From: Candidatus Binatia bacterium
GTDB taxonomy: Bacteria; Desulfobacterota; Binatia; UBA9968
Assembly (NCBI GenBank): GCA_041484845.1
Contig: JBGPIK010000002.1
Location: 1 to 58,313, forward strand
Length of the DNA: 58,313 bases
Direction: 5' to 3'
The position numbers were made by a program, and so were the translations under genes. Positions within the stretch are counted from its first letter, which is position 1. Each line of letters opens with the position of its first letter. The notes under the pieces are model-generated. The model had not been told where the DNA came from. It worked only from the letters and a program-made list of their open reading frames with translations, and did no database searches. This document shows positions 22,644-58,313 of this stretch, piece after piece.

Positions 22644-22674
22644 TCGTGAACCTTGATTGCTAACGGAGTTTTCA

Positions 22675-24973: not shown

Positions 24974-24991
24974 CGCAGAATCTCCTTTCTT

Positions 24992-25852: not shown

Positions 25853-25864
25853 TGAAGTCGACCC

Positions 25865-26722
25865 CTAATGTGTCCCAATATTCAGCTCGTGGCGGAAGAT
25901 ATTCCACAGGCGGCCATAGGCGTCGTCAAATCCTTCTTGCCGGTGAATTTCAAAGATGTTGCGCGGCCGGGCCATGGTGACGTTGATAACGTCTTTGATC
26001 TTGCCGGGACGGTGGGTCATGACGACGACCCGGTCAGCTAACGCTACCGCTTCCACCAAATCGTGGGTGACAAAGACAATCGTCTGGCGCTTCTGCCCCC
26101 AGATTTTCAACAGCTCATCCTGAAGCACCATGCGGGTTTGGGCATCCAGCGGACCGAATGGCTCATCCATGAGGATCACAGGAGGTTCATAAGCCAGAGC
26201 GCGCACGATCGAAGCCCGCTTGCTCATTCCGCCGGACAGCTGAGCCGGATAATACTTCTCGAATCCCTCCAAGCCCGCGAGGTTGATATACTGGCGGACT
26301 TGGCGCTCGCGATCTTTGCGCGGGTATCGTTTCGAATCGAGGCCGAAGCCGACGTTTTCTTCTACCGTTAGCCAGGGAAAGAGTTTACTTTCCTGGGGGA
26401 CATAACCTACCTTGGTGTTGAGTCCTCGCACTTCTTCTCCCTGGAAAAGAATCCGGCCCAATGACGGCGACGAAAACCCCGCCACAAGTTTGAGCAGGGT
26501 GGACTTGCCGCAACCACTAGGTCCTACAACCGTAACAAATTCTCCGTAGCCGATGCTCAAGCTGATTTCCTGAAGCGCGCTGATCGTCTCTTCATCAGGA
26601 GTTCGAAACAACTTCGACACATTGTCAACCTGAATGACTAATGAATCCTTAGATCGATTTTCCGGGGGAGTTTGAACGAGCATATCGGTCATTGTTGAAG
26701 TCCAGTCGGGAACCCAACCCAA
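25865..26722 (-). CDS. ABC transporter ATP-binding protein (TauB/SsuB-type)
   Basis: Walker A GPSGCGKST, signature LSGGMSKR and Walker B VILMDEPF are present. The TTG start at 26722 has AGGAG 8 nt upstream; ATG 26692 is an alternative. Confidence 0.9.
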   Translation of the reverse strand: MGWVPDWTSTMTDMLVQTPPENRSKDSLVIQVDNVSKLFRTPDEETISALQEISLSIGYGEFVTVVGPSGCGKSTLLKLVAGFSSPSLGRILFQGEEVRGLNTKVGYVPQESKLFPWLTVEENVGFGLDSKRYPRKDRERQVRQYINLAGLEGFEKYYPAQLSGGMSKRASIVRALAYEPPVILMDEPFGPLDAQTRMVLQDELLKIWGQKRQTIVFVTHDLVEAVALADRVVVMTHRPGKIKDVINVTMARPRNIFEIHRQEGFDDAYGRLWNIFRHELNIGTH

Positions 26723-26896
26723 GGGATCGGCTCCTTCGGTTACGTTGATTCGCCGAAAGTGCGCTACTCTATATCATAACTCTTCAAACTTTTCCTATGA
26801 CACGAAAAAATTTATAAGTGGTGACGGGCTTGCTTGCGCGCCTGTCAATCGGCTAATTTACAGGCTCTTAATGACTTATTCACTTGGGAGGATGCG

Positions 26897-27529
26897 ATGA
26901 AAACTATCAGCGAGTCCGTGATTAAAAGTAATACCGGCAAGACATTCGTGGTCAAGAAGGGGCAAGTCATCAGCGTTATCGGCCAATCGACGGCCGACTA
27001 CGTCGTCTTTAACTTGCGCAACGTCAAAGAGCGCTTTGATCAGGCGCGCACCAAGGTCGACCAAGGTAAAATCTATGTGACCACCGGAGATCTCCTGATC
27101 TCGAAATTCAACAATGTCATGATGACCATTGTGAAGGACACGTACAAGGGAACCCACGATCTCGAAAAAGGGATGTGCAGTACCTCCTTCTACAAGAAAT
27201 GGGGCGACCGGATCTTCGAAATCTACGGCGGCGTGTGGAAACAGTTGGGCCGAAAAAGAGGCGCCGCGCCCAAGCATGGCTGTTGGGAAAACCTAGCCAA
27301 AGCGTTGAAACCGCATGGCGTTCCCAAGGAGGACATTCCCAGTCCGCTCAACGTCTTTCAAACTATGGTGATCAATGCCGAAACCGGCAGCATGCGCTAT
27401 GCTATGGTGCGGCCGGACCCCGGAAGTCAAATGGATTTACGCGCTGAAATGGACTGCTTGGTCGGGATCAGCGCTTGCCCGGAAGGCGGACGGGGAAGAG
27501 ATCTAGAGATCATTATATACAAGAACTGA
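26897..27529 (+). CDS. DUF1989-family protein (urea-carboxylase-associated family)
   Basis: I trimmed the start to ATG 26897 (SD GGGAGG). MKTISESVIKSNTGKTFVVKKGQVISVIG...THDLEKGMCS...HGCWENL...LNVFQTMVI...MDCLVGISACPEG fits DUF1989. Confidence 0.7.
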   Translation: MKTISESVIKSNTGKTFVVKKGQVISVIGQSTADYVVFNLRNVKERFDQARTKVDQGKIYVTTGDLLISKFNNVMMTIVKDTYKGTHDLEKGMCSTSFYKKWGDRIFEIYGGVWKQLGRKRGAAPKHGCWENLAKALKPHGVPKEDIPSPLNVFQTMVINAETGSMRYAMVRPDPGSQMDLRAEMDCLVGISACPEGGRGRDLEIIIYKN

Positions 27530-27563
27530 TTCTCGCCCGATTCGGTGCGATGGGAATTCATCG

Positions 27564-28571
27564 TCAGCGATACAGGCGGTCGATGTAGCCGCTACTCTCG
27601 AGTTCCTTGAGAAAACTGACGTCCGTAAAGTCACTGGGTTTTGCTTGGGCGGCTTTGGGGTTTTTGGATTTCAATTGATCGAGGAAGAGCTGGATGCCGG
27701 GCTCCGTCGGATAGGGCACCTTGCGCGTCAGTTTGAGCACGATCTCGTTGTAACTTTCCGCCAGGGCTTTCTCGTCCTTGATGTCGAGATATTTTTGCAG
27801 GATCTTTTGAGCGCCCCTGGGATTCGTCAGATTGTAATGCACCGCATCGATATAAGCCTGCATGAAACGGCGTATGGTGTCGGGTTTCTTTTTGATGTAT
27901 TCACGGGTGACGGCGACGCCGTTTTGCTGCCACTCGACATCGAGTTTGGTAAAATCAAGCAGTGCGCGGACGCCGAGTTCCTTTGCCTTGAGAGTCTCGG
28001 GCGGCTGCAGCAGAGTCGCCTGGATAATGTTGCTCTGCATGGCCGCCAGGCGGGCCGGGACGGACCCGATCGTGACATAACCGACATCATCGGCCTTGAG
28101 TCCGTATCGTTCAAAGACGGTTTGCGCCGCGGCGTTATCCGCGCTGCCGATGCGGCTGACGCCGAATTTTTTCCCCTTAAGATCTTCCACCCGGGTAATC
28201 TGATTGGTGACGAAAAGCACATAAGGGAAGCGATTGACGGAACCGGCGATCAGCACCGCGCCGGAGCCGGTGAGATTGCTGGTGATCACCGCAGACGCGC
28301 CGGTGTGGATGATGGGTGTCTCTCCCGCCAACATGGCGGTTACGGCCAGTGGCGCTCCGACCAGAAGCACCAGTTCGACATCGAGCCCATGCCTGGCGTA
28401 AAAACCCGCCTCCTTGGCCGTCCAGACATTCAGTTGCGTCGGGCTGACTACGGTATAAGCGACACGGAGCTTTTCCAATGGAGCTTGCGCCCGGACGAAG
28501 GAAGCCGTCAGAGCGAGTAACTGTACAGCGCAAAGGATAGAGATAGATATCCGATAAATACGGGTGGTCAT
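27564..28571 (-). CDS. Second NMT1/TauA-type substrate-binding protein
   Basis: 335 aa with a signal peptide (…LTASFVRAQAP) and the pattern LRVAYTVVSPTQLNVWTAKEAGFYARHGLDVELV...KGKKFGVSRIGS. Confidence 0.75.
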   Translation of the reverse strand: MTTRIYRISISILCAVQLLALTASFVRAQAPLEKLRVAYTVVSPTQLNVWTAKEAGFYARHGLDVELVLLVGAPLAVTAMLAGETPIIHTGASAVITSNLTGSGAVLIAGSVNRFPYVLFVTNQITRVEDLKGKKFGVSRIGSADNAAAQTVFERYGLKADDVGYVTIGSVPARLAAMQSNIIQATLLQPPETLKAKELGVRALLDFTKLDVEWQQNGVAVTREYIKKKPDTIRRFMQAYIDAVHYNLTNPRGAQKILQKYLDIKDEKALAESYNEIVLKLTRKVPYPTEPGIQLFLDQLKSKNPKAAQAKPSDFTDVSFLKELESSGYIDRLYR

Positions 28572-28627: not shown

Positions 28628-30064
28628 CTATGCTTTGCCGGTGAGAATCTTATCGTCTTTCGCCGGATCATAGGAGCGCGTATCGCGTGCCAGATCCACT
28701 TTATTCAAAACCTCGACCGGCGCTCGCGCTTCTTTGGGAAAGTCATAGGGCGGCAGCGGCTTGGTGGCGTCGAATATTAGTTTGGTTTCCATCGGTCCTT
28801 TTTCCATCCGGTTATAACCGTAGGCGGTGGGATTTAAGTGCGAACCGATGATGTTCGGAATTATGACCATGTCCCGATCCGCCTGAAAGCGCATGGCCAG
28901 CGCCCACAGCACCTGAGTCTCGTTGAATACATCGACGTCATCATCGACGACGATCGCAAGCTTGATGTTGGGGTCGGTTACAATGGCGGCGAGAGCGGCC
29001 TGTTTAGGTTCACCCTCGGCGCGCTTCTTGACGGAAATGTAGCAATGAGAGCGGCCGGCGCCGGAGAGCGGCAAATTGACCGCCGTCGTGCTGGGTACGG
29101 CTTCCTGAATGCGGCGCAGCAGACTGCCCAGACGCGGAGCGGCACCAATAACGTTGTGTTCAAAATGGGCGCTGTGAATGCACTGGTAAATGGGGTTTTT
29201 GCGCATGGTGATCGCCGTTACCTCGATGTAAGGCTGCTCGCCCTCTTTATAGTAGTAGTGCGGCCATTCACCAAAAGGACCTTCGTAGTGCCGCTTTTTC
29301 GGCGGGACGATGCCTTCAATGACGATTTCACAGCGGGCCGGAACCATGAGATTGACGGTCTCCGCCTTCACTACTTCCAAAGGTTCGCCCAAAAAAGCGC
29401 CGGCCACTTCCAGTTCCTGGCCAATGCCGGCCTGTTTACTGACTGCGGCCAAGTTCAATGCCGGGTGATGCCCTATCGCGAGTGCGACTTCCATCGGCTC
29501 ATTGTGATCTTCATATTCGGCGCGTACATAATTGCCGTGATTGGCGGGGTTGATCATGAGCCCCAATTGTCTTTTGCCCTGTTTCTGATGACGGTAAATT
29601 CCGACATTGACTGCTTTCGTCCCGCGCTCCTTGCAAATCAGCGCAGCGGCATTGATATAGGCGCCGGCGTCGCCTTCGTTGAGGGTCAAGACCGGCAGCA
29701 AATCGAGGTCGACATCATCGCCTTTGAAGATCACCTCTTTGACCGGAGCGTCTTTTGCGGCGATCTCCTTGACCGGGATCGGTTGATGCTCTCGATGCGC
29801 CAGATCTTTCACCATTTGAGGCACCGTCGGTGAGCCCAATGATAAGGCAAGCCGCTCATAGGTCGCACCCAGATTGATAATTAGCGGGAATTTCGAACCT
29901 TTGATGTTTTTGAAGAAGACCAACGGAAATTTGTTTTCCCTTTCGAATTTCTCGACAATCGCACTGGCTTCATAACGCGGATCGACTTCACGATCCACAA
30001 TGACGACATCCTTGGGCCGCTTTTCCAAAAGTTCATCCATATAACTGCGCAAATCCTTAGGCAT
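28628..30064 (-). CDS. UbiD-family (prFMN-dependent) decarboxylase/carboxylase, paralogue 1
   Basis: I trimmed the start to ATG 30064 (SD GGAGGT). NVGIYRHQ, GQELEVAGAF, EIVIEG and EGPFGEWPHYY match the UbiD core motifs. Confidence 0.85.
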   Translation of the reverse strand: MPKDLRSYMDELLEKRPKDVVIVDREVDPRYEASAIVEKFERENKFPLVFFKNIKGSKFPLIINLGATYERLALSLGSPTVPQMVKDLAHREHQPIPVKEIAAKDAPVKEVIFKGDDVDLDLLPVLTLNEGDAGAYINAAALICKERGTKAVNVGIYRHQKQGKRQLGLMINPANHGNYVRAEYEDHNEPMEVALAIGHHPALNLAAVSKQAGIGQELEVAGAFLGEPLEVVKAETVNLMVPARCEIVIEGIVPPKKRHYEGPFGEWPHYYYKEGEQPYIEVTAITMRKNPIYQCIHSAHFEHNVIGAAPRLGSLLRRIQEAVPSTTAVNLPLSGAGRSHCYISVKKRAEGEPKQAALAAIVTDPNIKLAIVVDDDVDVFNETQVLWALAMRFQADRDMVIIPNIIGSHLNPTAYGYNRMEKGPMETKLIFDATKPLPPYDFPKEARAPVEVLNKVDLARDTRSYDPAKDDKILTGKA

Positions 30065-30135
30065 GTTATTACCTCCGTCAAATTCTTCGAAGTTAGACGC
30101 GGCGAGCAGACACCTGCTATATCCTGCAATCGACT

Positions 30136-30168
30136 GCACCTGTCAAGGATTGTTTACTTGACAGGTGC
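30136..30168. promoter_or_regulatory. Perfect 12-bp inverted repeat (candidate operator) with a TTGACA box facing each way
   Basis: GCACCTGTCAAG (30136-30147) and CTTGACAGGTGC (30157-30168) are separated by 9 nt. The repeat lies in the 138-nt gap between the divergent UbiD (minus) and LLM-UbiD-XDH (plus) gene sets. Each arm reads TTGACA in the direction of the gene it faces. Confidence 0.45.
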
Positions 30169-30202
30169 CCGGCGTTCCCCTAACACTAAACGCCGTAGAC
30201 AG

Positions 30203-31189
30203 ATGATGCGTAAGTTGCCTATTCAATTGGGCGTGAGTCTGCCGAATCGCGGCGTGCTCTTCGGCTTGACGGATATCGATACGATTCTCGACGCCGCCGT
30301 TCTCGCGGAGAGCTCCGGGATTTTCGAGTCGGTCTGGTTCGGCGACAGCCTGATTCACAAGCCGCGCCTCGATTCCATCGTGATGCTTAGCGCCGCCGCA
30401 ACGCGCACGCGCAAGGTTCGGCTGGGCGTGATCTGCATGGCCAGCTTTCCTGTGCGCCATCCGGTGCTGCTCGCGATTCAGTGGGCAAGTTTGGATCAAC
30501 TCTCGAAAGGGCGGACACTATTGGGCGTTTGCATCGGCGGCGGGCACGAAGGCGAAATGCGCGCCTTCGGCGTGCAAAAAAACGAGCGCGTCGGACGACT
30601 GACCGAGGGCATCAAGCTCCTGCGCGAAATCTGGGACGAAGAGGAACTCCATCACCAAGGCAAGTTCTACAAACTTGAAGGCTACCGCATCGTTCCCAAG
30701 CCAATACAAAAGCCGTGTCCCATTTGGATCGCAGTCAGCCCTGACCGTCGCGTGGTCGGGGACGAGGGCGTAGCGCGCGCGATGAAACGGGTGGCGACGC
30801 TCGGCGACGGCTACATCAGCATGGCCGTGACAGCGGAGGAACTGGCATTGCGTCTGAATCTGATTGAAAAATATGCCAACGAAGCGGAGCGCAACCTCGA
30901 GCATTTTGAAGTGGCTATTCATGGCATGGTGAACATTAACGATAGTAAGCAAAGCGCCTACGAGGAATCTAAATACTATTTTAACAACTACTATGCTCCC
31001 GGTTATCCCACGGAAGAATTGGTTAAAATTTGGCTGGCCCATGGATCGCCAGACGAGTGCGCGCGCTTGATCCAGGAATGGATCGATATGGGTTTCACCA
31101 CGCCGGTATTGCGCTTCGCTGCGCGTGATCAGATCGGCCAAATCGAGCGCTTTATCAAAGATGTTTATCCTCTGCTGCGGTTGAATTGA
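30203..31189 (+). CDS. Luciferase-like (LLM class) flavin- or F420-dependent oxidoreductase
   Basis: I trimmed the start to ATG 30203 (MMRKLPIQLGVSLPN...). SVWFGDSL, the central GRTLLGVCIGG and the length (about 328 aa) fit the LLM family. The start assignment is uncertain because no clear SD is present. Confidence 0.75.
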   Translation: MMRKLPIQLGVSLPNRGVLFGLTDIDTILDAAVLAESSGIFESVWFGDSLIHKPRLDSIVMLSAAATRTRKVRLGVICMASFPVRHPVLLAIQWASLDQLSKGRTLLGVCIGGGHEGEMRAFGVQKNERVGRLTEGIKLLREIWDEEELHHQGKFYKLEGYRIVPKPIQKPCPIWIAVSPDRRVVGDEGVARAMKRVATLGDGYISMAVTAEELALRLNLIEKYANEAERNLEHFEVAIHGMVNINDSKQSAYEESKYYFNNYYAPGYPTEELVKIWLAHGSPDECARLIQEWIDMGFTTPVLRFAARDQIGQIERFIKDVYPLLRLN

Positions 31190-31262
31190 AAGTGGAATCG
31201 CTGGTACAAGATTCTATGCCATTGTCCTTTTTGGCGGCTTAAAGAAAGCGTAGGAACGATCC

Positions 31263-32609
31263 ATGTTCGAAGACTTGAGAGGTTTTCTCACGCACCTGGA
31301 AAGCCAAGGCCAACTTCTTCACGTCAAGGACGAAGTCGACGTCAAATATGAAATTGCCGCGGGTATGCGTAAGACTTCGGACATCGAAGGTCCGGCTCTT
31401 TTGTTTGAAAATATCAGGGGATATCGCGGCTGGCGTGTCTTGGGTGGGCTGTTCGCGACGCGCAAGCTAGTCGCTTTGGGTCTTGGTGTGCCGCAAGAGC
31501 AAATGCTCGAGCGCTACCTAACCCTGGAAGACCAGCGTATTGCGCCGGAGCCGGTCTCCTCCGGACCGGTAAAAGAAATCAAATGGACCGGCAGCCAAAT
31601 CGATTTAACCAAAATTCCGATCGTCACGCACGCGAGCAAAGATTGCGGGCCTTATGTTACCATCGGCGTGCAGATCGGCAAGGATCCCGACTCCGGAGTC
31701 CGTAATTTGTCGATTCACCGCATGCTGCTCTTGGGCAAGGACCGGCTGTCGCTCTGGGCGCCGGCTGACCATCATCTAGGTCGCATGATCCTCAAAGCCG
31801 AGGAAAAAGGCCGCGGCCTTGAAGTCGCTACGGCCGTGGGCGTCGATCCCGCCATCATCGTCGGCTCGCAAGCCAAGGTTCCTTATGGCATCGATGAATT
31901 CCACGTTGCCGGCGGTCTGCGCGGCGGGGCGGTGAAGCTGGTCAAATGTGAGACCATCGACGTCGAGGTTCCGGCGTTTGCTGAAGTCGTCATCGAAGGC
32001 GTGACAATCCCTGGCGAGCGTGTCGCCGATGGGCCGTACGGCGAGTACCCCGGCTGTTATAGCGAAGCGAAGCAGGCCCCGGTGCTGAAAGTAACCGCGA
32101 TCACCATGCGCCAAAACGCGATCTGGCAGACCGCCCTGACCGGCATGCCGGTGACGGAAAATCACACCTTAATCGAATATGGCAACGCCGCGTTGGTTTA
32201 CCGCGAAATCAAAAAGATTGTCCCCGAGGTTAAAGCCATTAATTTTACTCCGGGCGGCACGTTTCGCCATCATGTGGTGGTGTCGATCAAGAAGCGCGCT
32301 GAAAATGAAGGCCGCAATGTTATCCTGGCATTGCTTTCCCTGGGCATCGGTTTGAAGCAAGTGACTGTTGTCGATGACGATATTGATGCCTTTAATCCCA
32401 TGCAGGTGGACTGGGCGCTCGCTACGCGCATGCAGGCGGACAAAGACGTGATCATCATTCCGCGTATCGCTTGTTCAACGCTTGACCCCTCGGTGCCGGA
32501 ACCGCGCGTCACCGCCGGTTTGGGTATCGATGCCACGGCGCCGATGAAAGATCGCTGGCGTTTTGAAAAAGTGGAAATTCCCGGCGTGGACAAAGTGAAG
32601 TACATCTAA
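31263..32609 (+). CDS. UbiD-family decarboxylase/carboxylase, paralogue 2
   Basis: 448 aa with NLSIHRML, IDEFHVAGGL, EVVIEG and DGPYGEYPGCY. This is the same fold family as 28628-30064 but clearly divergent. Confidence 0.85.
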   Translation: MFEDLRGFLTHLESQGQLLHVKDEVDVKYEIAAGMRKTSDIEGPALLFENIRGYRGWRVLGGLFATRKLVALGLGVPQEQMLERYLTLEDQRIAPEPVSSGPVKEIKWTGSQIDLTKIPIVTHASKDCGPYVTIGVQIGKDPDSGVRNLSIHRMLLLGKDRLSLWAPADHHLGRMILKAEEKGRGLEVATAVGVDPAIIVGSQAKVPYGIDEFHVAGGLRGGAVKLVKCETIDVEVPAFAEVVIEGVTIPGERVADGPYGEYPGCYSEAKQAPVLKVTAITMRQNAIWQTALTGMPVTENHTLIEYGNAALVYREIKKIVPEVKAINFTPGGTFRHHVVVSIKKRAENEGRNVILALLSLGIGLKQVTVVDDDIDAFNPMQVDWALATRMQADKDVIIIPRIACSTLDPSVPEPRVTAGLGIDATAPMKDRWRFEKVEIPGVDKVKYI

Positions 32610-32622: not shown

Positions 32623-33498
32623 ATGAAGAACTTCGATTATCTTGAGCCAAAGAGTGTCACTGAAGCGTGTGCGCTTTTGCGACAGCACGGCGCAGAAGCC
32701 CGCATCTTTGCCGGCGGCGCGCAGTTAACGATCTTGATGAAGCAGGGCCTCTATCAGCCCAAGGCCCTCATCAATATTAAGAAGATTCCAGAATTGAGAG
32801 GAATAACATTCGACCCTACAGCCGGGCTGACCATCGGCGCGCTGGTGACGCATCGCGACCTTGAAACCTCTGCGCTCGTCAAAGACAAATTTCCCGTACT
32901 TTGCGAAGCCGAAAGGGAGGTTGCCAACATCCGTGTACGAAACGTCGGAACCATCGGTGGCAATCTGGCCTCAGGTGAGGCTTTGACGGACTTGTCGCAG
33001 ATTTTTATCGCGTTGGATGGCCAAGTGAAGATCGCCGGGCCGGGAGGAAGCCGCAATCTTCTCGTAGAGGAGCTTTTCGTCGACTTTTATCAAACCAGCC
33101 TTGCGGAAGATGAACTGCTGACGCATGTGTCGGTGCCGCCTCTCCCTCCTCGTTCCGGTATAGCGTACATTCGATTTTCCAGCAGCTCGACGGTCGATAA
33201 ACCGTCAGTTGGAGTTTGTGTCCGCGTCACTCTAGAGCAGGGCAACGAGAACGCTCGCAGCGTTCGCGTTGTGCTCGGCTGTGTCGGGCCGACCCCCGTT
33301 AGAGCGCGCAAAGCGGAAGCGCTGCTGGCCGAAAAGTCCATTGTGCCGGATCTCATTGAAGAGGTGGGTGCTTCAGCCGCTCGGGAATGCAATCCGAGCA
33401 GCGATTTACGGGGTTCGGAACACTATAAGCGGGCGATCGTGCGCACGCTGGTCAAACGGGCGCTGATCCAGGCTTGCGAACAGGCGCTGCGGAATTAG
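32623..33498 (+). CDS. Xanthine-dehydrogenase-family FAD-binding subunit (CoxM-like)
   Basis: 291 aa. FDYLEPKSVTEA...IFAGGAQL...NVGTIGGNLA is the PCMH-type FAD-binding pattern of molybdopterin dehydrogenase medium subunits. Confidence 0.85.
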   Translation: MKNFDYLEPKSVTEACALLRQHGAEARIFAGGAQLTILMKQGLYQPKALINIKKIPELRGITFDPTAGLTIGALVTHRDLETSALVKDKFPVLCEAEREVANIRVRNVGTIGGNLASGEALTDLSQIFIALDGQVKIAGPGGSRNLLVEELFVDFYQTSLAEDELLTHVSVPPLPPRSGIAYIRFSSSSTVDKPSVGVCVRVTLEQGNENARSVRVVLGCVGPTPVRARKAEALLAEKSIVPDLIEEVGASAARECNPSSDLRGSEHYKRAIVRTLVKRALIQACEQALRN

Positions 33499-33507
33499 GC
33501 TCTTTTC

Positions 33508-34023
33508 ATGAAGAAGACGATTTCTCTTACGGTTAATGGGATCGAGCGCAGCGTCGAAGTCGAGCCGCGTACGACGTTGCTCGATATGGTCCGCGAGCAG
33601 CTCGGCCTGACCGGCGCCAAGCTCGGCTGTGACATTCAAGTCTGTGGCGCGTGCACTTTATTGCTCAACGGTAAACCGGTGAGTGCTTGTTCTGTTTTAG
33701 CCATCGACGCGGACGGTTGCGAGGTTTTGACTATTGAAGGATTGAGCCGGAAGGATTCGCTGCATCCGCTTCAGGAAGCTTTCATGGAATTCGGCGCGCT
33801 GCAGTGCGGCTATTGTACCTCCGGCTTCATCCTCACCGCCAAAGCCTTGCTGGACGAATGCCCGCGGCCGTCTGAACAGCAAATTAAGGATTACCTGGCC
33901 GGGAATTTTTGCCGTTGCGGCTGTTATCAGGAAATCGTTCAGGCGGTGAAAAACGTCGCGAGCCTCTTTCCTCCCCCGCGTGCGGGGGAGGATGAAGGAG
34001 GGGGTAGCTCGCGCAAAGACTAG
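33508..34023 (+). CDS. [2Fe-2S]-binding small subunit (CoxS-like)
   Basis: 171 aa with both cluster motifs: CDIQVCGAC...C, and QCGYCTSG...CRCGCY. The last ~20 codons are encoded by a palindromic element (see 33970-33991). Confidence 0.9.
   Translation: MKKTISLTVNGIERSVEVEPRTTLLDMVREQLGLTGAKLGCDIQVCGACTLLLNGKPVSACSVLAIDADGCEVLTIEGLSRKDSLHPLQEAFMEFGALQCGYCTSGFILTAKALLDECPRPSEQQIKDYLAGNFCRCGCYQEIVQAVKNVASLFPPPRAGEDEGGGSSRKD
33970..33991. repeat. GC-rich palindromic element embedded in the 3' end of the CoxS-like ORF
   Basis: CCTCCCCCGC-GT-GCGGGGGAGG has perfect 10-nt arms. It encodes the non-conserved-looking tail ...FPPPRAGEDEGGG, about 45 nt before the large-subunit start. Confidence 0.6.
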
Positions 34024-34037
34024 GGCAGGATAATTCG

Positions 34038-36371
34038 ATGGAAACAACTGAAATCGGCCAATCCGTTCGCCGGTTAGATTACGAAACTAAAGTTACGGGC
34101 AGGGCGCTCTACCTCGCGGACATGCAAGTGCCGGGCATGTGCCATGGGAAAATTCTGCGCAGCCCGCTGCCGCACGCGCGCATCAAGAAGATCGAAACCT
34201 CGAAGGCGCTGAAGATCCCCGGTGTTCTCGCCGTTATCACGCGTGACGACATACTGCACGATGAAGGCATCGAGCCTTACTATGGCCCGGTGTTCAAGGA
34301 TCAGACGCTGGTCGCGGTCGACAAGGTTCGTCACGTCGGCGATCCCGTGGCGGCGGTTGCGGCGCTGAGCGTTGATGCGGCGGAAGCGGCGATAGAGCTG
34401 ATCGATGTCGAATACGAAGAGCTACCGGCGGTGCTCAATGTCCATGACGCTTTAACGCCGGGCGCGACTTTAGTTCACGAGTCTGTTCGTATACCCGAAT
34501 CCGGTTTTGCCGATCTCGCCGAGATCAAGCCCGTCGAAGGCACCAATATTTGCACGCACTTCAAGCTTAACCGCGGCGACATCCAGAAGGGTTTCGCGGA
34601 GTCGGATCAGATCTTCGAAGATACCTTTACGCTTCCGGCTACGCAGCATAGTTTTCTCGAGACTCACGCCTGTATCGCATCGGTGGAGCCCGGCGGCCGC
34701 ATTACGGTCTGGGCGACGACACAAAACCCCTTTGTGGTGCGAACCCAGCTGTCGAATATTTTCAAAGTTCCAGTCTCGAAAGTTCGGGTCGTGGTTCCTT
34801 ATTTGGGCGGCGGCTATGGCGGCAAGGTCTATCCAAAGATCGAGCCGATCACGGTGGCCCTGGCGCTGAAGGCGCAGCGGCCGGTGCGCGTCGTGCTGTC
34901 ACGTGAAGAAGTTTTCTACACCATTACCAAACATGCCGCCGTGATCCGCATGAAGACCGGCGTGAAGAACGACGGCACCCTCGTAGCGCGCGAATGCGAA
35001 ATCCATCTCGACACCGGCGCCTATGCCGAAATCGGACCGCGGGTAGCGAAGAAATCAGGCTATACGGCGGCGGGGCCGTACCGCATTCCCAATCTAAAAA
35101 TCGATTCCTATTCTGTATACACGAACAAGCCGCCGGCCGGCGCCTTTCGCGGCTTCGGCGTTTCCCAGTCGGCCTGGGCCGTCGAGTCGCAGATGGATAT
35201 CATTGCCGCGGCGCTAAAGATGGATCCGTTGGAGTTGCGGCAGAAGAATGGCTACGACGAGGGAGACAAATTTGTTACCGAAGAGACGCTGCGCGGCGTT
35301 GGCCTGAAGCCGTGTCTGGACGAAGTGGCAAAGTCCATCGGTTGGGGAAAGAAAGAGATAGAGTTCAAGGGTTCAAAGGTTCAAGGTTCAATTCAGAATA
35401 GCGTCAAGCGGGGCAAGGGAATCGCCTGCATGATCAAAGCGACGATTACGCCGTCGATTTCCTGCGCCGTGGTCAAGCTCAACGAAGACAGCAGCGTATC
35501 TATCTATGCGGGCACCGTGGAAATGGGGCAGGGATCTGAGACCACGCTGGCTCAGATTGCCGGCAAGGAATTGGGAATTCCGCTGAAAAAAATCCAGGTG
35601 CTGGGAGTGGACACCGACGTCGTGCCGTATGATCTTACGACTTCGTCCAGCCGCTCGACCTTCCATATGGGGAAAGCCGTGCAACTGGCGGCGCAGGATA
35701 TCCTGCGCCAATTGAAACAAACCGTCGCCCAAGAGTATGGAGTCCGAGGGGACAATATCAGTTTCGTGGAGGGAAAAATCCGCCTGCCTGAAACGGTTCT
35801 CGACTATGCCGACGTGATGTTTAAACGTTTCGGCATGCGCGGCGGCACGCTGGTGGGTGACGGGCAGGTAAAGACCGCGGTCAAAGACGAGTACGGCGAG
35901 AAAAGCACATCGGCTTTCTGGTTTTACGCGGCGGGTGCCGCGGAAGTGGAAGTCGATACCGAAACCGGAAAGATCAAGTTGCTCAAGTACGCCAGCGCCG
36001 TGGACGTCGGCAAGGCGCTCAACCCCCTCGGTTGCCGCCAACAGCTCACCGGCGCCGCGATCACCGGCATCGGCCAGGCGATGTTTGAGGAAATCGCCTA
36101 CGATAATGGCCAGATTATTAACCCCAATTTGGTCGATTACGTCTTGCCTTCCCTAGGCGACATGCCTAACGTGATTGATCCGATCGCGATTGAAATTCCT
36201 CATAAGAACGGCCCGTTCGGTGCGAAGGGCATCGGTGAAAGCGCGCTCATTCCGGTCGCCCCGGCGATCGCCAATGCCATTTACGATGCGGTCGGCGTGC
36301 GCATCAAAGATCTGCCGATTAAAGCAGAAAAGATTTATCTTGCTCTGGAAGAACTGAGAGTAAAATCATAG
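34038..36371 (+). CDS. Molybdopterin-binding large subunit of a xanthine-dehydrogenase/aldehyde-oxidase-family hydroxylase
   Basis: 777 aa with GGGYGGK, PPAGAFRGFG and GAKGIGES (catalytic Glu context). These are XDH-family motifs, not the CO-dehydrogenase active-site loop. Confidence 0.9.
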   Translation: METTEIGQSVRRLDYETKVTGRALYLADMQVPGMCHGKILRSPLPHARIKKIETSKALKIPGVLAVITRDDILHDEGIEPYYGPVFKDQTLVAVDKVRHVGDPVAAVAALSVDAAEAAIELIDVEYEELPAVLNVHDALTPGATLVHESVRIPESGFADLAEIKPVEGTNICTHFKLNRGDIQKGFAESDQIFEDTFTLPATQHSFLETHACIASVEPGGRITVWATTQNPFVVRTQLSNIFKVPVSKVRVVVPYLGGGYGGKVYPKIEPITVALALKAQRPVRVVLSREEVFYTITKHAAVIRMKTGVKNDGTLVARECEIHLDTGAYAEIGPRVAKKSGYTAAGPYRIPNLKIDSYSVYTNKPPAGAFRGFGVSQSAWAVESQMDIIAAALKMDPLELRQKNGYDEGDKFVTEETLRGVGLKPCLDEVAKSIGWGKKEIEFKGSKVQGSIQNSVKRGKGIACMIKATITPSISCAVVKLNEDSSVSIYAGTVEMGQGSETTLAQIAGKELGIPLKKIQVLGVDTDVVPYDLTTSSSRSTFHMGKAVQLAAQDILRQLKQTVAQEYGVRGDNISFVEGKIRLPETVLDYADVMFKRFGMRGGTLVGDGQVKTAVKDEYGEKSTSAFWFYAAGAAEVEVDTETGKIKLLKYASAVDVGKALNPLGCRQQLTGAAITGIGQAMFEEIAYDNGQIINPNLVDYVLPSLGDMPNVIDPIAIEIPHKNGPFGAKGIGESALIPVAPAIANAIYDAVGVRIKDLPIKAEKIYLALEELRVKS

Positions 36372-36964: not shown

Positions 36965-38671
36965 TTATGGCACCAACCCAGCCGACTTGAGCATCTTGTA
37001 CGTCGTGTAGCCTCCGGACAGGTTCCGTGTGTGATAACCATGCTGTGCCAGGAATCGTGTGGCGTAGTACGATCGCTGTCCCACGCCGCAACAGGTCCAA
37101 ATGTCGCGATCCTTCGGAAGTTCGACATAACGATGGCGCATCTGCGAAAGCGGCAGATTAACCGCGTTCGGGATATGGCCGCGGTCGAATTCCTGGGGTT
37201 CGCGCACGTCAAGCAACAAGGCCACGGTGTGGTCAAGTTCCTGCCAATCGGCCAGGGGCATGTCTTCATTTAGAACGTTGCGGGCGAGCATGCCGGCAAG
37301 GTTTACGGGATCTTTCGCTGCGCCAAACTGCGGCGCATAGCAAAGCTCCGCCTCAGCGAGATCGTACACAGTGCCATTAAACTGAATCGCAGTTGCGATG
37401 ACGTCGATGCGCTTCTCCACGCCTTCGAGCCCGATCGCTTGCCCTCCAAGAATACGGCCATCCGGCACTGAAAACAGTAATTTCAAGTGAATCGGACTGG
37501 CGCCCGGATAATAACCGGCGTGATGCCCCGGATAAAGGTACACCTTCTGAAAATTCGTTACGCCAGCGCGCCGCAGTCCCTTCTCGCTTGCGCCCGTTGA
37601 TGCGACCGTCAACCCTAAAACACCAACCACGGCAGTCGCTTGTACGCCGCGGAATTTTGTCGTACGCCCCGCGATAGACTCGGCGGCAACTCGGCCTTCG
37701 CGATTAGCCGGTCCAGCGAGCGGCAGCACTGTCTCTTGACCCATGAGCACGTCGTGCACCTCTACGACATCGCCCACCGCCCAGATGTTCGGATCAGAAG
37801 TACGCATTTGGGCATCAACGACAATGCCTCCACGCGGGCCGATTTGCAGTGCGGCGTCCCTGGCCAGCGAGTTCTCGGGCCGCACGCCAATTGCTAGAAT
37901 CACAAGATCCGCAGGCAGCCGGGTGCCGCTCTCCGCTACGACAACCAGGCCACCGTCAGCGCGTTTTTCTATGCGCGCAAGCCCGTCAGCTAAATGGAGG
38001 CGCACACCCTTTACGGCAAGGTGTTCCATCAGCGGCACCGCCATCTCAGGATCCAGGGGAGGCATTAGCTGAGGCAGCTTCTCCAAAATAGCTACGGAGA
38101 GGTCGCGATGAACCAAGTTCTCGACCATCTCCAACCCAATGAATCCGCCACCGACAACGACCGCTGTCTTCGCGCAATGATCAGCGATCCATGAGCGGAT
38201 TCGACGCGAGTCCGGGATGGTTCGGACGGCGAAGACACCGGGCAGGTCCACGCCGGGCAGCGCCGGTCGGATCGGTGCGGCTCCCGGTGACAATACGAGA
38301 ACGTCGTAGCGCTCGGTGCGGCTGTTGCCCGTGCGCACGTCGCGGACCGTGATTAAGCGTGCGCTGCGGTCGATGCTCATGACCTCACTCTCGGTCTGTA
38401 CCTCGATATTAAACCGCTCGCGAAACATTTCTCTCGAGGCCAACAGCAGACTGAGCTCGTCGGAAATAATGTTGCCGACGTAGTAAGGTAGGCCGCAGTT
38501 TGCGAACGACACGTAGGGGCCGCGATCGAACATAACGATATCAACCGACTCGTCAAGTCGCCTCAGTCGCGCCGCGCAAGAGGCGCCTCCTGCCACCCCT
38601 CCGACAATGAGCACGCGGCGGGAACCGCGGGTGTCCGAAGAAACGTATTGCGTAGGGGCTTGATGGCTCAT
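36965..38671 (-). CDS. CoA-disulfide-reductase-family flavoprotein fused to a C-terminal rhodanese domain
   Basis: 568 aa with FAD motif IVGGVAGGASCA, redox Cys context SFANCGLPYY, a second dinucleotide fold VVVGGGFIGLE, and a C-terminal rhodanese with active-site CCGVGQRS. Confidence 0.85.
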   Translation of the reverse strand: MSHQAPTQYVSSDTRGSRRVLIVGGVAGGASCAARLRRLDESVDIVMFDRGPYVSFANCGLPYYVGNIISDELSLLLASREMFRERFNIEVQTESEVMSIDRSARLITVRDVRTGNSRTERYDVLVLSPGAAPIRPALPGVDLPGVFAVRTIPDSRRIRSWIADHCAKTAVVVGGGFIGLEMVENLVHRDLSVAILEKLPQLMPPLDPEMAVPLMEHLAVKGVRLHLADGLARIEKRADGGLVVVAESGTRLPADLVILAIGVRPENSLARDAALQIGPRGGIVVDAQMRTSDPNIWAVGDVVEVHDVLMGQETVLPLAGPANREGRVAAESIAGRTTKFRGVQATAVVGVLGLTVASTGASEKGLRRAGVTNFQKVYLYPGHHAGYYPGASPIHLKLLFSVPDGRILGGQAIGLEGVEKRIDVIATAIQFNGTVYDLAEAELCYAPQFGAAKDPVNLAGMLARNVLNEDMPLADWQELDHTVALLLDVREPQEFDRGHIPNAVNLPLSQMRHRYVELPKDRDIWTCCGVGQRSYYATRFLAQHGYHTRNLSGGYTTYKMLKSAGLVP

Positions 38672-56651: not shown

Positions 56652-56719
56652 AAGATTCCTCGCTCTGCTCGGAATGACAACTTAAGGGGTCTGTCATCCC
56701 GAACGCAGTGAGGGATCTT
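56652..56719. repeat. Inverted pair of 28-nt GTCAT(T/C)CCG...GG(A/G)ATCTT REP-like elements
   Basis: AAGATTCCTCGCTCTGCTCGGAATGACA (56652-56679) and TGTCATCCCGAACGCAGTGAGGGATCTT (56692-56719) are reverse complements at 22 of 28 positions, 12 nt apart. They explain the spurious ORF 56569-56754. Confidence 0.65.
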
Positions 56720-56807
56720 GATCGAACTGAACCCCTACCCCCTTTGACTTTCAATGATCAACCACCGTAGAATCGACTTATCCCCATAGATTTAAAAGGA
56801 GGCCCCT

Positions 56808-57419
56808 ATGGCAGAGCCGCTCGTGCTCGAAGTTTTCTCCGATTTCGTTTGACCCTGGTGCTACCTCGTCACCGGGCGTGTCGAGAAACTTAAAGCGAAT
56901 TATCCTCTGGCGGTCAAATGGACGCAATTCCCTCTTCATCCGGAAACCCCCGAAGATGGCGCCGAACGGGGCGATGAAATGGTTGCCCGAAATCAGCGCA
57001 TGAAAGTAAACATGGACCGCGAAGGCTTGCCTTATAATGTCCAGCGCCGGTGGTCCTACAACAGCCGGCTTGCTCAGGAGCTGGCGAAATGGGCCGAGAC
57101 CAAAGGTAAAGCGGAACAAATCACGGATGCCCTGTTTCGCGCCTACTTTGTAGACGTTAAAAATATCGGCCGAGCCGAAGTCCTCGCCAAGATCGCCGCG
57201 GAAAACGGCTTACCGGGGGATGAAGCTACGGACGTGCTGTCAAGCCGGAGCTTTAAAGATTTGGTCGATAACGATTGGCGCCGCTGCGCCGCCGTCGGCG
57301 TCAATGCGGTGCCGACATTTCTTGCCGGCCGCTATTTGGTGGTCGGCGCGCAGCCGTACGAAGAGTTGGAGCGGCTCGTTCAGCATGTGATGAATTCGCC
57401 GGAGAACGGATTGGAGTGA
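56808..57419 (+). CDS. DsbA/FrnE-family thiol:disulfide oxidoreductase, predicted selenoprotein (in-frame TGA 56850-56852 read as Sec in a U-P-W-C motif)
   Basis: SD AGGAGG lies 5 nt before ATG 56808. Translation gives MAEPLVLEVFSDFV[TGA]PWCYLVTGRVEKLKANYPLAVKWTQFPLHPETPEDG..., continuing in the same frame as track ORF 56979-57419 with no other stop. The TGA sits exactly where the family has the first Cys of FSDxxCPWC. A hairpin starts right after the TGA. Confidence 0.75.
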
Positions 57420-57514
57420 TGGAGTGGTGGAGTAAGGGGATTGGAGTGGTGGAGTATTGGAGTGATGGAGTAATGCGTAAAACCCAATACTCCAGTACTC
57501 CATTATTCCAATGA
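57411..57514. repeat. GGAGTA-type octamer tract with inverted complement (copy 2, longer)
   Basis: Seven TGGAGTRN-like units (TGGAGTGA TGGAGTGG TGGAGTAA...TGGAGTGG TGGAGTAT TGGAGTGA TGGAGTAA) are followed by CCAATACTCCAGTACTCCATTATTCCAATG. The element overlaps the stop of the DsbA-like gene. Confidence 0.75.
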
Positions 57515-57569: not shown

Positions 57570-58313
57570 TTGCCCTACACCATGATTTCAGCCGATGATC
57601 ACATTGACCTGGGGTATTTGCCCAAAGATTTGTGGACCGAACGCCTGCCCAAATCTTTGCGCGATCGCGCGCCCCACGTCGAGGATAGAGGCGAGAAGGG
57701 TGAGTATTGGGTGTGCGACGGCGAGACCTGGGCGGACTATCGCGGCGAGCGCTGGTTTGCCAAGGCCAATCGCACCCGGTTGGCTCTTGACAGGGGCGGA
57801 GTCGGCGAAGCGCATCGGCCCACGACGCCGGAGAAACGGCTCGCCGATATGGATCGCGACGGAGTCGAGGCATCGCTCATGTTTCCGCCCATTATCGCGA
57901 TGCAAGTGGGCGAGCCCGAGTTGAGAAATGGCTGCGTCCAGGCGTACAACGATTGGGCGCTCGAGTTTGGTAAAACCGCCCCGAAGCGCTTCTTTCCCGT
58001 TGCCATGCTCTCTTCTGTCGACGCCGAAGCCGCTAGAGACGAGGTCATTCGCGTAGCGAAACTGGGCTTTCACGAAGCGAACTTCCTGGTCAACGATGTC
58101 ACGCTCCAGATGAATCTACAGCCATGGGACATCTTCTGGAACGCGGCTGAGGACGCAGGCATCGTTGTGTCTTACCATGTGGGCGGCAGCACTCAGTCGG
58201 GAACCGTGCGGGCGACTATTGACTCGATGAAGCCCGGCGAGCGCCAGGGCGTCTTCGATATGGGCCTTAGCAATGGCGCTACTACATTCTTCAATCCCTT
58301 CGTCAATATGTTC
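57570..58313 (+). CDS. Amidohydrolase-2 (ACMSD/LigW-like metal-dependent hydrolase/decarboxylase) family protein, N-terminal part; continues beyond the window end
   Basis: Absent from the ORF track because it has no stop inside the window. It has 248 open codons from TTG 57570 (SD GGGAGG 8 nt upstream; ATG 57582 is an in-frame alternative). LPYTMISADDHIDLGYLPKDLW...RLADMDRDGVEASLMFPP...YNDWALEF is typical of the amidohydrolase 2 family. Confidence 0.75.
   Translation, partial: MPYTMISADDHIDLGYLPKDLWTERLPKSLRDRAPHVEDRGEKGEYWVCDGETWADYRGERWFAKANRTRLALDRGGVGEAHRPTTPEKRLADMDRDGVEASLMFPPIIAMQVGEPELRNGCVQAYNDWALEFGKTAPKRFFPVAMLSSVDAEAARDEVIRVAKLGFHEANFLVNDVTLQMNLQPWDIFWNAAEDAGIVVSYHVGGSTQSGTVRATIDSMKPGERQGVFDMGLSNGATTFFNPFVNMF

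What the first reader, a model, noticed from the sequence alone, without database searches (positions are those of the whole stretch)
56808..57419. Predicted selenoprotein: TGA replaces the first Cys of the CxxC active site in a DsbA/FrnE-family oxidoreductase
AGGAGG lies 5 nt before ATG 56808. Fourteen sense codons follow, then TGA 56850-56852, then 188 more sense codons in the same frame to the stop at 57417-57419. The read-through product MAEPLVLEVFSDFV-U-PWCYLVTGRVEKL... reproduces the family signature FSD-x-x-C-P-W-C-Y with Sec at the nucleophilic position. The track ORF begins only at Met 56979, which would delete the whole active site and the first beta-alpha unit. Directly after the TGA the mRNA can form CCC(U)GGUG-N9-CACCGGG, a 7-bp stem with a bulged U that could be a SECIS-like element. 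Thiol:disulfide oxidoreductase selenoproteins are known from computational surveys, so the novelty is moderate. This gene would nonetheless be missed or truncated by standard annotation, and it implies Sec decoding in this organism.
Basis: partly seen in the sequence, partly recalled or inferred. Interest (0 to 1): 0.75.

Follow-up and report, generated by a model that had tools for sequence, protein, structure and literature searches.

The report
FrnE/DsbA-like selenoprotein gene, mis-annotated as truncated
This is a real but already-known kind of gene: a small cytoplasmic thiol-disulfide enzyme whose catalytic cysteine is replaced by selenocysteine, encoded by an in-frame TGA that makes annotation software cut off the active site.

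Summary
AGGAGG (56797-56802) is followed by ATG 56808, 14 sense codons, TGA 56850-56852 and 188 more sense codons to the stop at 57417-57419. With the TGA read through, the product is a complete DsbA-domain protein (Pfam PF01323, E 5e-34) closest to Deinococcus FrnE. The TGA falls on the first Cys of CPWC.

The TGA is not an error. It sits at the same column in 78 of 80 species-representative genomes; the other two loci are cut before the site. Two other assemblies of this locus carry it too. All 41 full-length non-Sec relatives have Cys there. TGA is an ordinary stop elsewhere in the window.

It shows no covariation and fails two published bSECIS criteria. A hairpin 12 nt downstream of the TGA (56865-56885, CUCGUCAC-CGGGC-GUGUCGAG) meets all the criteria, shows compensatory changes at three pairs, and overlies codons with no synonymous variation.

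No selA, selB, selD or tRNA-Sec lies in the window, so the machinery is untested.

The family ("DsbA-like protein", UxxC, COG2761) has been a published selenoprotein family since 2005. This is a new member of a known kind, and interest is low to moderate.

The parts
56797..56802 (+). Shine-Dalgarno AGGAGG, 5 nt before the start codon
   Evidence: Sequence. An RBS-like motif precedes the equivalent ATG in 71 of 80 sequences.
56808..57419 (+). Full selenoprotein CDS: 203 residues (Sec at position 15) plus the TGA stop. FrnE/DsbA-like thiol-disulfide oxidoreductase.
   Evidence: Pfam DSBA E 5.3e-34, profile positions 2-190 of 191. (FrnE 5cnw, E 1e-18). (model of orthologue P0001 matches FrnE, TM 0.72-0.80). 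ATG 14 codons upstream of the TGA in 70 of 81 sequences.
56850..56852 (+). Sec-encoding UGA (codon 15)
   Evidence: TGA in all 81 aligned sequences. Cys at this column in 41 of 41 full-length Cys-forms. Identical in two other assemblies.
56850..56861 (+). Redox motif U-P-W-C (UxxC), equivalent to CPWC of FrnE
   Evidence: In the model of P0001 this position caps the N-terminus of helix alpha-1, directly after strand beta-1.
56865..56885 (+). Best-supported bacterial SECIS hairpin: 5' arm 56865-56872 (CUCGUCAC), loop 56873-56877 (CGGGC), 3' arm 56878-56885 (GUGUCGAG)
   Evidence: 92.7% of cells paired, 3 pairs with compensatory changes, 0 of 500 shuffles reach the observed values, slid controls 19-48%; zero codon entropy at codons +5 to +10.: -8.7 kcal/mol. 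RNAalifold consensus finds the same helix. Meets all the bSECIS criteria in PMC13188914.
56852..56879 (+). It shares 56870-56872 with the SECIS hairpin, so the two exclude each other.
   Evidence: it is the MFE structure; no covariation, and its only variable pair is unpaired in 24-30 of 77 sequences. Loop starts 8 nt after UGA with no G in its first two positions.
57285..57287 (+). Extra Cys160 (DWRR-C-AAVG), enriched in Sec-forms
   Evidence: Cys in 63 of 81 Sec-forms against 4 of 41 Cys-forms.
57312..57314 (+). Conserved cis-Pro-loop proline (P169, VPTF) of the thioredoxin fold
   Evidence: Invariant in alignment A2. Pro in 80 of 81 Sec-forms and 41 of 41 Cys-forms.
56979..57419 (+). Truncated 146-aa ORF that gene callers report; it lacks beta-1, the active site and alpha-1
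   Evidence: P0003. The same truncated call appears in the JGI and NCBI assemblies.

Best explanation
Window 56808-57419 encodes one 203-residue cytoplasmic thiol-disulfide oxidoreductase of the FrnE branch of the DsbA family. The attacking residue of the CPWC redox motif is selenocysteine (UPWC).

Proposed decoding mechanism: translation starts at ATG 56808. When the ribosome reaches UGA 56850, the mRNA hairpin at 56865-56885 lies just outside the ribosome. It has an 8-bp stem and a CGGGC loop that starts 20 nt after the UGA. It recruits SelB with Sec-tRNA(Sec), so Sec is inserted instead of terminating.

Proposed enzyme function: by analogy with FrnE, the protein reduces or isomerises disulfides in cytoplasmic substrates. 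Sec15 attacks the substrate and Cys18 resolves the mixed selenenylsulfide.

What is shown: the gene structure, family membership, the Sec/Cys column, deep conservation of the TGA, and the RNA-level constraint and covariation on the hairpin. What is inferred: actual Sec insertion, SelB binding, cytoplasmic location (only 6 residues precede strand beta-1, so there is no room for a signal peptide), and the reductase/isomerase activity.
For: Gene structure:
- Frame and RBS are as described.
- ATG 14 codons upstream of the TGA in 70 of 81 sequences; RBS-like motif in 71 of 80.

Family:
- Pfam DSBA E 5e-34, full length.
- FrnE 5cnw/5cp1 E 1e-18, with its CPWC aligned to UPWC.
- AF2 model of orthologue P0001 has pLDDT >=90 over the real protein. 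Its best PDB hits are FrnE (TM 0.72-0.80) and SCO1869.

Sec column:
- TGA in 78 of 80 genome loci, down to about 49% identity, and in L081. TGA in all 81 aligned sequences.
- Cys in 41 of 41 full-length non-Sec relatives, the closest 55% identical.

Coding on both sides of the TGA:
- Amino acids are conserved while synonymous sites vary, at codons -10 to -1 and +13 to +39.

Not an error and not a reassigned code:
- Identical sequence in two other assemblies.
- TGA terminates 14 of 40 window ORFs; GC is 54.5%.

SECIS:
- Compensatory changes at 3 of 8 pairs. Pair 31-45 occurs as AU 37, GC 35, UA 2, UG 2, GU 1; pair 33-43 as UA 39, CG 37.
- 0 of 500 shuffles reach the observed values, and slid controls are far lower.
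- Codon entropy is zero at codons +5 to +10, against 1-2 bits elsewhere.
- All bSECIS criteria of PMC13188914 are met (loop 5 nt, G at loop position 2 followed by G or U, 20-nt spacing, -8.7 kcal/mol).

Precedent:
- DsbA-like UxxC selenoproteins, COG2761 (PMC1088965; PMC1794560; PMC13188914).
Against: - No selA, selB, selD or tRNA-Sec in the 58-kb window or in the +/-3 kb flanks of the first 60 loci, L001-L060. Sec competence of this organism is therefore not shown.
- No other convincing in-frame-TGA gene in the window.
- No Rfam SECIS match.
- In single-sequence folds the minimum-energy structure is the competing proximal hairpin, not the proposed SECIS.
- In the window's own subclade the SECIS stem has one U-U mismatch (pair 32-44).
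- Much of the covariation traces to one deep split between two subclades, plus about four smaller independent events, so the number of independent events is modest.
- No experiment shows selenium in any member of this clade.
Confidence: 0.92

Rival explanations
1. The gene is a selenoprotein, but the functional SECIS is the UGA-proximal hairpin the first reader proposed (56853-56876, or its un-bulged form 56852-79), not the 56865-56885 hairpin.
For: It is the minimum-free-energy structure in the window and in the orthologues L040 and L070. It is paired in 93-96% of cells across 77 distinct sequences. The invariant third-codon positions C (col 36) and G (col 39) could serve its pairs as well as the distal hairpin's loop.
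Against: It has no compensatory changes. Its only freely varying pair (Pro third position with Gly/Val second position) is unpaired in 24-30 of 77 sequences and does no better than shuffles (405 of 500). Its pairing follows from invariant amino acids (P-W-C, T-G). [quoted passage not shown] Its 5' arm is nucleotides +1 to +8 after the UGA, which would be inside the ribosome when UGA is in the A site (inference from general knowledge of the ribosomal mRNA channel). It does not explain the invariant C at 56867 and G-A at 56883-84, or the coupled GUC/GUC to AGU/AUU changes.
Confidence: 0.1
2. The TGA is a true stop. The locus is a pseudogene or assembly error, or the functional product is the N-terminally truncated protein started at an internal codon such as Met 56979.
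For: Gene callers produce exactly this, a 146-aa ORF. No Sec machinery was found in the window.
Against: The TGA is conserved at the same codon in about 80 species, with protein-level conservation and synonymous variation on both sides. A pseudogene or an error would not show this. Two other assemblies have identical sequence. A conserved ATG plus RBS lies 14 codons upstream. The internal start is not conserved: callers pick different M, V or L starts in different orthologues. The truncated product would lack beta-1, the redox motif and alpha-1 of the thioredoxin fold.
Confidence: 0.03
3. The UGA is read as a standard amino acid (Trp, Cys or Gly), either through a reassigned genetic code or through near-cognate read-through, not as Sec.
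For: One JGI orthologue (P0001) is recorded with Trp at this position.
Against: P0001's DNA has TGA and does not translate to the recorded protein under table 11, so the W comes from the translation table the caller used. In the window TGA ends 14 of 40 major ORFs, including this gene, and GC is 54.5%, which is unlike known TGA-reassigned lineages. Homologues have Cys, never Trp or Gly, at the column. A conserved, covarying hairpin at SECIS distance is unexplained by simple read-through.
Confidence: 0.03

Closest known systems
DsbA-like selenoprotein family ('DsbA-like protein form 1', PF01323, COG2761, UxxC): Zhang, Fomenko & Gladyshev 2005 (PMC1088965); Zhang et al. 2006 (PMC1794560); 2026 review (PMC13188914)
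   Same: Same Pfam domain and the same UxxC motif, with Sec replacing the first Cys. A bacterial SECIS lies inside the coding region just after the UGA. Cys-containing homologues are widespread. Previously reported in Deltaproteobacteria and relatives (Anaeromyxobacter, Desulfovibrio desulfuricans), which overlaps the lineages found here.
   Different: Nothing categorical. This is a particular clade (FSD[FY]V-U-PWCYL[VS]TGR) found mainly in MAGs labelled Binatia, 'delta proteobacterium' or Thermodesulfobacteriota. I could not compare it directly with the published representative, NIP15863.1. The covariation-supported SECIS and the enriched Cys160 are details I did not find in the papers I read.
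Deinococcus radiodurans FrnE (DR_0659; PDB 5cnw, 5cp1, 5coh, 5co3, 5xwh), a cytoplasmic disulfide reductase/isomerase of the DsbA family, FrnE subfamily cd03024 (PMC8945050)
   Same: Best PDB match by sequence (E 1e-18) and by fold (TM 0.72-0.80). Same C/U-P-W-C motif at the alpha-1 N-cap, same helical insertion and same cis-Pro loop. No signal peptide.
   Different: FrnE uses Cys, not Sec. Identity is about 26-27%. drFrnE has a C-terminal CxxxxC tail (residues 239-244) proposed to regenerate the active site. This protein ends at residue 203 and has no such tail, like the S. roseofulvus and D. maricopensis homologues (PMC8945050).
E. coli fdhF-type bacterial SECIS / bSECIS consensus model (PMC13188914, Fig. 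2A)
   Same: A stem-loop within the ORF, with a small apical loop that has G followed by G or U near its 5' side. The loop starts 20 nt after UGA (allowed range 16-37), the stem is 8 bp and the MFE is -8.7 kcal/mol.
   Different: No primary-sequence similarity to fdhF, and no Rfam model matches. A competing upstream hairpin overlaps its 5' arm by 3 nt.
Periplasmic DsbA (E. coli-type) and kappa-class GST / HCCA isomerase members of PF01323
   Same: Same overall fold (ranks 12-50).
   Different: Much weaker structural and sequence matches. Periplasmic DsbAs have signal peptides and a CPHC motif. HCCA isomerases and GST-kappa lack the CxxC dithiol chemistry.

Membership tests
Bacterial selenoprotein gene (Sec-UGA recoding) | In-frame UGA that aligns with Cys in homologues (Sec/Cys pair) | tested here: met
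   U15 aligns with Cys in 13 of 13 and 41 of 41 full-length homologues, and with C22 of FrnE.
Bacterial selenoprotein gene (Sec-UGA recoding) | TGA-containing orthologues in other organisms, with coding conservation on both sides of the TGA | tested here: met
   78 of 80 genome loci plus L081. Synonymous variation with conserved amino acids both upstream and downstream.
Bacterial selenoprotein gene (Sec-UGA recoding) | bSECIS hairpin downstream of UGA: loop 3-9 nt, stem 4-16 bp, G in the first two loop positions, 16-37 nt from UGA to loop, MFE <= -7.5 kcal/mol (PMC13188914) | tested here: met
Hairpin 56865-56885: loop CGGGC, 8-bp stem, 20-nt spacing, -8.7 kcal/mol, with covariation.
Bacterial selenoprotein gene (Sec-UGA recoding) | Genome encodes selA, selB, selC (tRNA-Sec) and selD | tested here: inconclusive
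   None found in the window: 0 tRNAs and 40 ORFs scanned. But 58 kb is a small part of a genome.
Bacterial selenoprotein gene (Sec-UGA recoding) | Selenium physically incorporated at the UGA position | not testable with these tools
   Needs 75Se labelling or mass spectrometry.
DsbA-like selenoprotein form 1 (PF01323, UxxC) | Full-length DSBA thioredoxin domain (PF01323) | tested here: met
   118 bits against a cutoff of 25.6; profile positions 2-190 of 191.
DsbA-like selenoprotein form 1 (PF01323, UxxC) | Redox motif UxxC, with Sec first | tested here: met
   U15-P-W-C18. C18 is invariant.
FrnE subfamily of DsbA family (cd03024) | Thioredoxin fold with an inserted helical domain, the CxxC at the alpha-1 N-terminus, and a cis-Pro loop | tested here: met
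   The AF2 model of orthologue P0001 (77% identical) has beta1, [U]alpha1, beta2, a helical insert, cis-Pro, beta3, beta4 and a final alpha helix, with pLDDT >=90. Its top PDB hits are FrnE and SCO1869.
FrnE subfamily of DsbA family (cd03024) | Active-site motif CP(W/F)C (PMC8945050) | tested here: met
   UPWC, with Sec in place of the first Cys.
FrnE subfamily of DsbA family (cd03024) | Cytoplasmic, with no signal peptide | tested here: met
   Only 6 residues (MAEPLV) precede strand beta-1 and there is no hydrophobic leader. This is a sequence-based inference; no localisation predictor was run.
FrnE subfamily of DsbA family (cd03024) | C-terminal CxxxxC regeneration motif (present in many members, not all) | tested here: not met
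   The protein ends at residue 203 and has no Cys after C160. PMC8945050 notes that bona fide FrnE proteins such as S. roseofulvus FrnE also lack it, so this feature is not strictly defining.
FrnE subfamily of DsbA family (cd03024) | Disulfide reductase/isomerase activity | not testable with these tools
   Requires an enzyme assay.

The most novel reading that the evidence does not exclude
In this Sec-containing clade the extra conserved Cys160 (63 of 81 Sec-forms against 4 of 41 Cys-forms) may have co-evolved with Sec as a third redox residue. It could resolve or regenerate the Sec15-Cys18 selenenylsulfide and so functionally replace the C-terminal CxxxxC tail of Deinococcus FrnE. That would define a mechanistically distinct U/C/C subclass. 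Separately, the two mutually exclusive hairpins (56852-79 and 56865-85) might act as a conformational switch that tunes Sec insertion. Neither idea was tested beyond the counts given.
Probability: 0.1. Interest if true: 0.4.

Novelty: new member of a known kind. Interest (0 to 1): 0.25.

Why it matters
The practical value is in annotation. This clade of FrnE-like selenoproteins is present in at least about 80 species-level genomes, mostly MAGs labelled Binatia, 'delta proteobacterium' or Thermodesulfobacteriota. In the protein collections I searched, it is recorded only as 139-176-residue fragments without the active site, or once with a spurious Trp. The NCBI MAG that carries this exact locus has the same truncated call.

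Correcting the gene model restores the catalytic centre. It also flags these lineages as Sec users, which bears on selenium ecology in soils and sediments. The covariation-supported SECIS gives a clean, family-specific RNA signature that could be used to annotate the clade automatically.

It does not change what is known about selenoproteins. The family, the UxxC motif and the recoding mechanism have been described since 2005.

Tried and rejected
- Rfam, at gathering thresholds on the whole window and permissively on 56780-56960: no SECIS or other RNA family matched. This is uninformative, because bacterial SECIS elements are poorly covered.
- ARAGORN on the window and on the first 60 loci: no tRNA-Sec.
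- NCBIfam scan of 40 window ORFs: no selA, selB or selD. The only selenium-flavoured hits were below cutoff: Sao-like ABC components, and Se-dependent XDH models hitting a generic Mo-hydroxylase.
- Scan for other in-frame TGA genes in the window: 82 mechanical candidates, none with a UxxC or CxxU context or other support.
- NCBIfam on the protein itself: only a sub-cutoff hit to the Rcas_1661 (seleno)lipoprotein model (34 bits against 190), so it is not that family.
I used orthologue P0001 instead.
- Single-sequence AF2 of P0001 was useless (pLDDT 38.9). The alignment-based rerun worked.
- Gene-neighbourhood clustering over 82 loci: no partner gene is conserved. The best is in 28 of 82 loci, so there is no operon-based functional clue.
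- Literature search for 'Binatia' plus 'selenocysteine': no papers.

Full report
**1. Observation**

The sequence is as described.
- AGGAGG lies at 56797-56802, followed by a 5-nt spacer and ATG 56808.
- Fourteen sense codons follow, then TGA at 56850-56852.
- Another 188 sense codons run in the same frame to the TGA stop at 57417-57419.
- The mechanical ORF list starts this gene only at ATG 56979 (146 aa).
- The read-through product is MAEPLVLEVFSDFV-U-PWCYLVTGRVEKL...

**2. Family**

With Cys in place of the TGA, the 203-residue product matches Pfam DSBA (PF01323) at E 5.3e-34. The match covers profile positions 2-190 of 191.

The best solved relatives are Deinococcus radiodurans FrnE (5cnw/5cp1, E 1e-18) and Streptomyces SCO1869. 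FrnE's WSDIA-C-PWCY aligns residue for residue with FSDFV-U-PWCY.

I could not submit the edited sequence for structure prediction. Instead I modelled P0001, a 77%-identical orthologue from a JGI metagenome, using an alignment of Sec-form fragments and Cys-form full-length relatives.
- pLDDT is at least 90 across the real protein and low over the 51 spurious upstream residues.
- The architecture is beta1, alpha1, beta2, a helical insertion, the cis-Pro loop, beta3, beta4 and a final helix.
- The Sec position sits at the N-terminal cap of alpha1.
- Foldseek against the PDB ranks FrnE first (TM 0.72-0.80, E 2e-15) and then SCO1869. YjbH, HCCA isomerases, kappa-class GSTs and periplasmic DsbAs come well behind.

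**3. Is the TGA real and conserved?**

In a search of 5.8 billion proteins, nearly all close homologues are 141-176 residues long and begin after the TGA column. This is the signature of a systematic truncation.

The one apparent full-length hit, P0001, has Trp at the column. Its DNA has TGA and does not translate to the recorded protein under table 11. The Trp therefore comes from the caller's translation table.

A scan of one genome per species returned 80 loci. They are MAGs labelled Binatia, 'delta proteobacterium', Thermodesulfobacteriota, Syntrophobacteraceae, Acidobacteriota, Planctomycetota, Verrucomicrobiia and others.
- 78 of them, down to about 49% identity, carry TGA at exactly this codon within FSD[FY][VI]-*-PWCY.
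- The other two are cut by a contig end. A looser match recovered the site in one of them, L068.
- The equivalent ATG lies 14 codons upstream in 70 of 81 sequences, and 71 of 80 have an RBS-like motif.

Two other assemblies carry this very locus: JGI 3300052992 and NCBI GCA_041496665.1. They are identical over the 211 nt compared, including the TGA, and both are annotated with the 146-aa truncation.

TGA is an ordinary stop for 14 of 40 major ORFs in the window, and GC is 54.5%. A reassigned genetic code is therefore excluded.

**4. Sec/Cys pair**

An exhaustive HMMER search with P0001 found full-length relatives of about 200-210 residues at up to 55% identity. All those inspected carry Cys at the TGA column.
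- 13 of 13 in alignment A2.
- 41 of 41 in a larger MAFFT alignment.

The second Cys (C18) and the cis-Pro (P169) are invariant or nearly so.

**5. SECIS**

*Sequence constraint.* The nucleotides after the TGA are extraordinarily conserved. Codons +5 to +10 (CTC, GTC/AGT, ACC, GGG, CGT, GTC/ATT) have zero codon entropy across 81 sequences. Equally conserved amino acids elsewhere, both upstream and downstream, show 1-2 bits of synonymous variation. This points to an RNA-level constraint.

- It is 93-96% paired, but only because its columns are fixed by the P-W-C and T-G codons.
- The single variable pair is unpaired in 24-30 of 77 sequences.
- It does no better than shuffles and shows no compensatory change.

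*The distal hairpin.* The hairpin is CUCGUCAC-CGGGC-GUGUCGAG at 56865-56885 (alignment columns 28-35 with 41-48).
- It is 92.7% paired.
- Three pairs show changes on both sides. Pair 31-45 occurs as AU 37, GC 35, UA 2, UG 2 and GU 1. Pair 33-43 occurs as UA 39 and CG 37. Pair 28-48 occurs as CG, UG and UA.
- 0 of 500 shuffles reach the observed pairing or covariation score, and slid controls give 19-48% pairing.
- RNAalifold found the same helix independently.
- The main change (GUC...GUC to AGU...AUU) separates two subclades. At least four smaller variants (UGU/AUA, UGC/GUG, UGC/GUA, GGU/AUU) keep the pairing.

*Published criteria.* The bSECIS model in PMC13188914 (Fig. 2A) requires a 3-9 nt loop, a 4-16 bp stem, a G in the first two loop positions (usually followed by G or U), 16-37 nt from UGA to the loop, and an MFE of -7.5 kcal/mol or lower.
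- The distal hairpin meets all of them: 5-nt loop CGGGC (CGUGC in some lineages), 8-bp stem, 20-nt spacing and -8.7 kcal/mol.

*Mutual exclusion.* The two hairpins share 56870-56872, so they cannot form together. I infer that a ribosome with UGA in its A site covers the 5' arm of the proximal hairpin, which frees the distal one. This inference rests on general knowledge of the ribosomal mRNA channel and was not tested.

**6. Sec machinery**

The window has no tRNA and no selA, selB or selD among 40 ORFs. It has no other convincing in-frame-TGA gene. The flanks of the first 60 loci have no tRNA-Sec either. This criterion stays open, because 58 kb is a small sample of a genome.

**7. Context and function**

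The gene stands alone. An acyl-CoA ligase lies divergently upstream, and an Amidohydro_2 gene lies about 150 nt downstream. No neighbour is conserved across the loci; the best is found in 28 of 82.

[quoted passage not shown] Recombinant D. radiodurans FrnE has disulfide isomerase and insulin-reduction activity. A mutant is sensitive to cadmium and diamide. Its C-terminal CxxxxC is proposed to regenerate the active site.

The protein here has no leader peptide and no C-terminal CxxxxC. The most likely role is therefore a cytoplasmic disulfide reductase or isomerase with a more reactive Sec nucleophile, regenerated by an unknown partner. This is an inference from homology.

**8. Comparison with what is known**

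A 'DsbA-like protein' selenoprotein family was described from the Sargasso Sea in 2005 (PMC1088965), with COG2761, a UxxC motif and 9 sequences. It was found in Anaeromyxobacter dehalogenans, Desulfovibrio desulfuricans and Desulfotomaculum reducens in 2006 (PMC1794560). The 2026 review lists it as 'DsbA-like protein form 1, PF01323, UxxC' (PMC13188914).

This gene passes every membership feature I could test. It is a new member of a known family, not a new kind of system.

**9. Verdict**

The proposed SECIS should be replaced by the hairpin at 56865-56885. Novelty is low. The useful outcomes are a corrected gene model, evidence that this clade is widely mis-annotated, and a covariation-supported SECIS. 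Interest is 0.25.

Noticed in passing
window 57408-57512 (and 22586-22650): Immediately at and after the gene's stop codon there is an array of 8-nt-periodic TGGAGTNN repeats (57412-57471), followed by inverted copies (57489-57510). Together they form a long imperfect hairpin. The pattern has 8 matches in the window against 0.05 expected. A smaller look-alike sits just after the FabI-like ORF at 22586-22650. It may be a REP-like intergenic element or a terminator.
   Followed up: partly
window 56654-56717: The upstream intergenic region holds an imperfect palindrome, GATTCCTCGCTCTGCTCGGAATGACA ... TGTCATCCCGAACGCAGTGAGGGATC. The right arm is a single copy in the window. It lies between the divergent acyl-CoA ligase gene and the selenoprotein gene, so it could be a REP-like element or an operator.
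   Followed up: partly
window 57285-57287 (Cys160): An additional Cys (DWRR-C-AAVG), nine residues before the cis-Pro, is present in 63 of 81 Sec-forms but only 4 of 41 Cys-form homologues. This is a possible co-evolved third redox residue. Its distance to the active site could not be measured with the tools.
   Followed up: partly
window 56852-56885: Two mutually exclusive hairpins share 56870-56872. The thermodynamically preferred one is proximal and includes the A of the UGA. The covarying one is the distal SECIS. This could be a simple by-product of the P-W-C and T-G codons, or a conformational switch.
   Followed up: partly
L081 / P0001 (JGI 3300086519): A public JGI gene call translates the orthologous TGA as Trp and extends the ORF 51 codons upstream into non-coding sequence. 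It was evidently called with a TGA=Trp table. The AF2 model gives that extension pLDDT below 50.
   Followed up: yes
window 23912-28571 and 9673-10668: An ABC transporter (ATPase 25865-26722, permease 24992-25852, several SsuA-family binding proteins) gives sub-cutoff hits to the Sao system models: SaoA 242 bits against 360, SaoP 109 against 295, SaoX 52 against 300. The Sao system includes selenoproteins in other organisms. No in-frame TGA was seen here, so this is probably a generic NitT/TauT-family transporter.
   Followed up: no
window 4357-5223, 28628-32609, 32623-36371, 57571-58313; loci flanks: The window is rich in aromatic-compound catabolism genes: a class III extradiol dioxygenase, two UbiD-family decarboxylases, a three-subunit Mo-hydroxylase resembling 4-hydroxybenzoyl-CoA reductase or xanthine dehydrogenase, and an Amidohydro_2 gene. 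In 19-21 of 82 orthologous loci the neighbours include a carboxymuconolactone-decarboxylase-like ORF, an alpha/beta-hydrolase and a dioxygenase-like ORF. The association is loose and not a conserved operon.
   Followed up: no
window 36965-38671 (- strand): A 568-aa CoA-disulfide-reductase-like flavoprotein (TIGR03385, 451 bits against a cutoff of 579) with about 100 extra C-terminal residues. It is another thiol-redox enzyme, 18 kb from the selenoprotein gene.
   Followed up: no
alignment A2 columns 56-62 (window about 56970): The Sec-form clade lacks about 7 residues that the Cys-forms have after the conserved PETPxEG motif. P0121, the closest Cys-form, still keeps the SECIS-encoded peptide NTGRIEKLK. 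This hints at a fairly recent Sec/Cys exchange.
   Followed up: no
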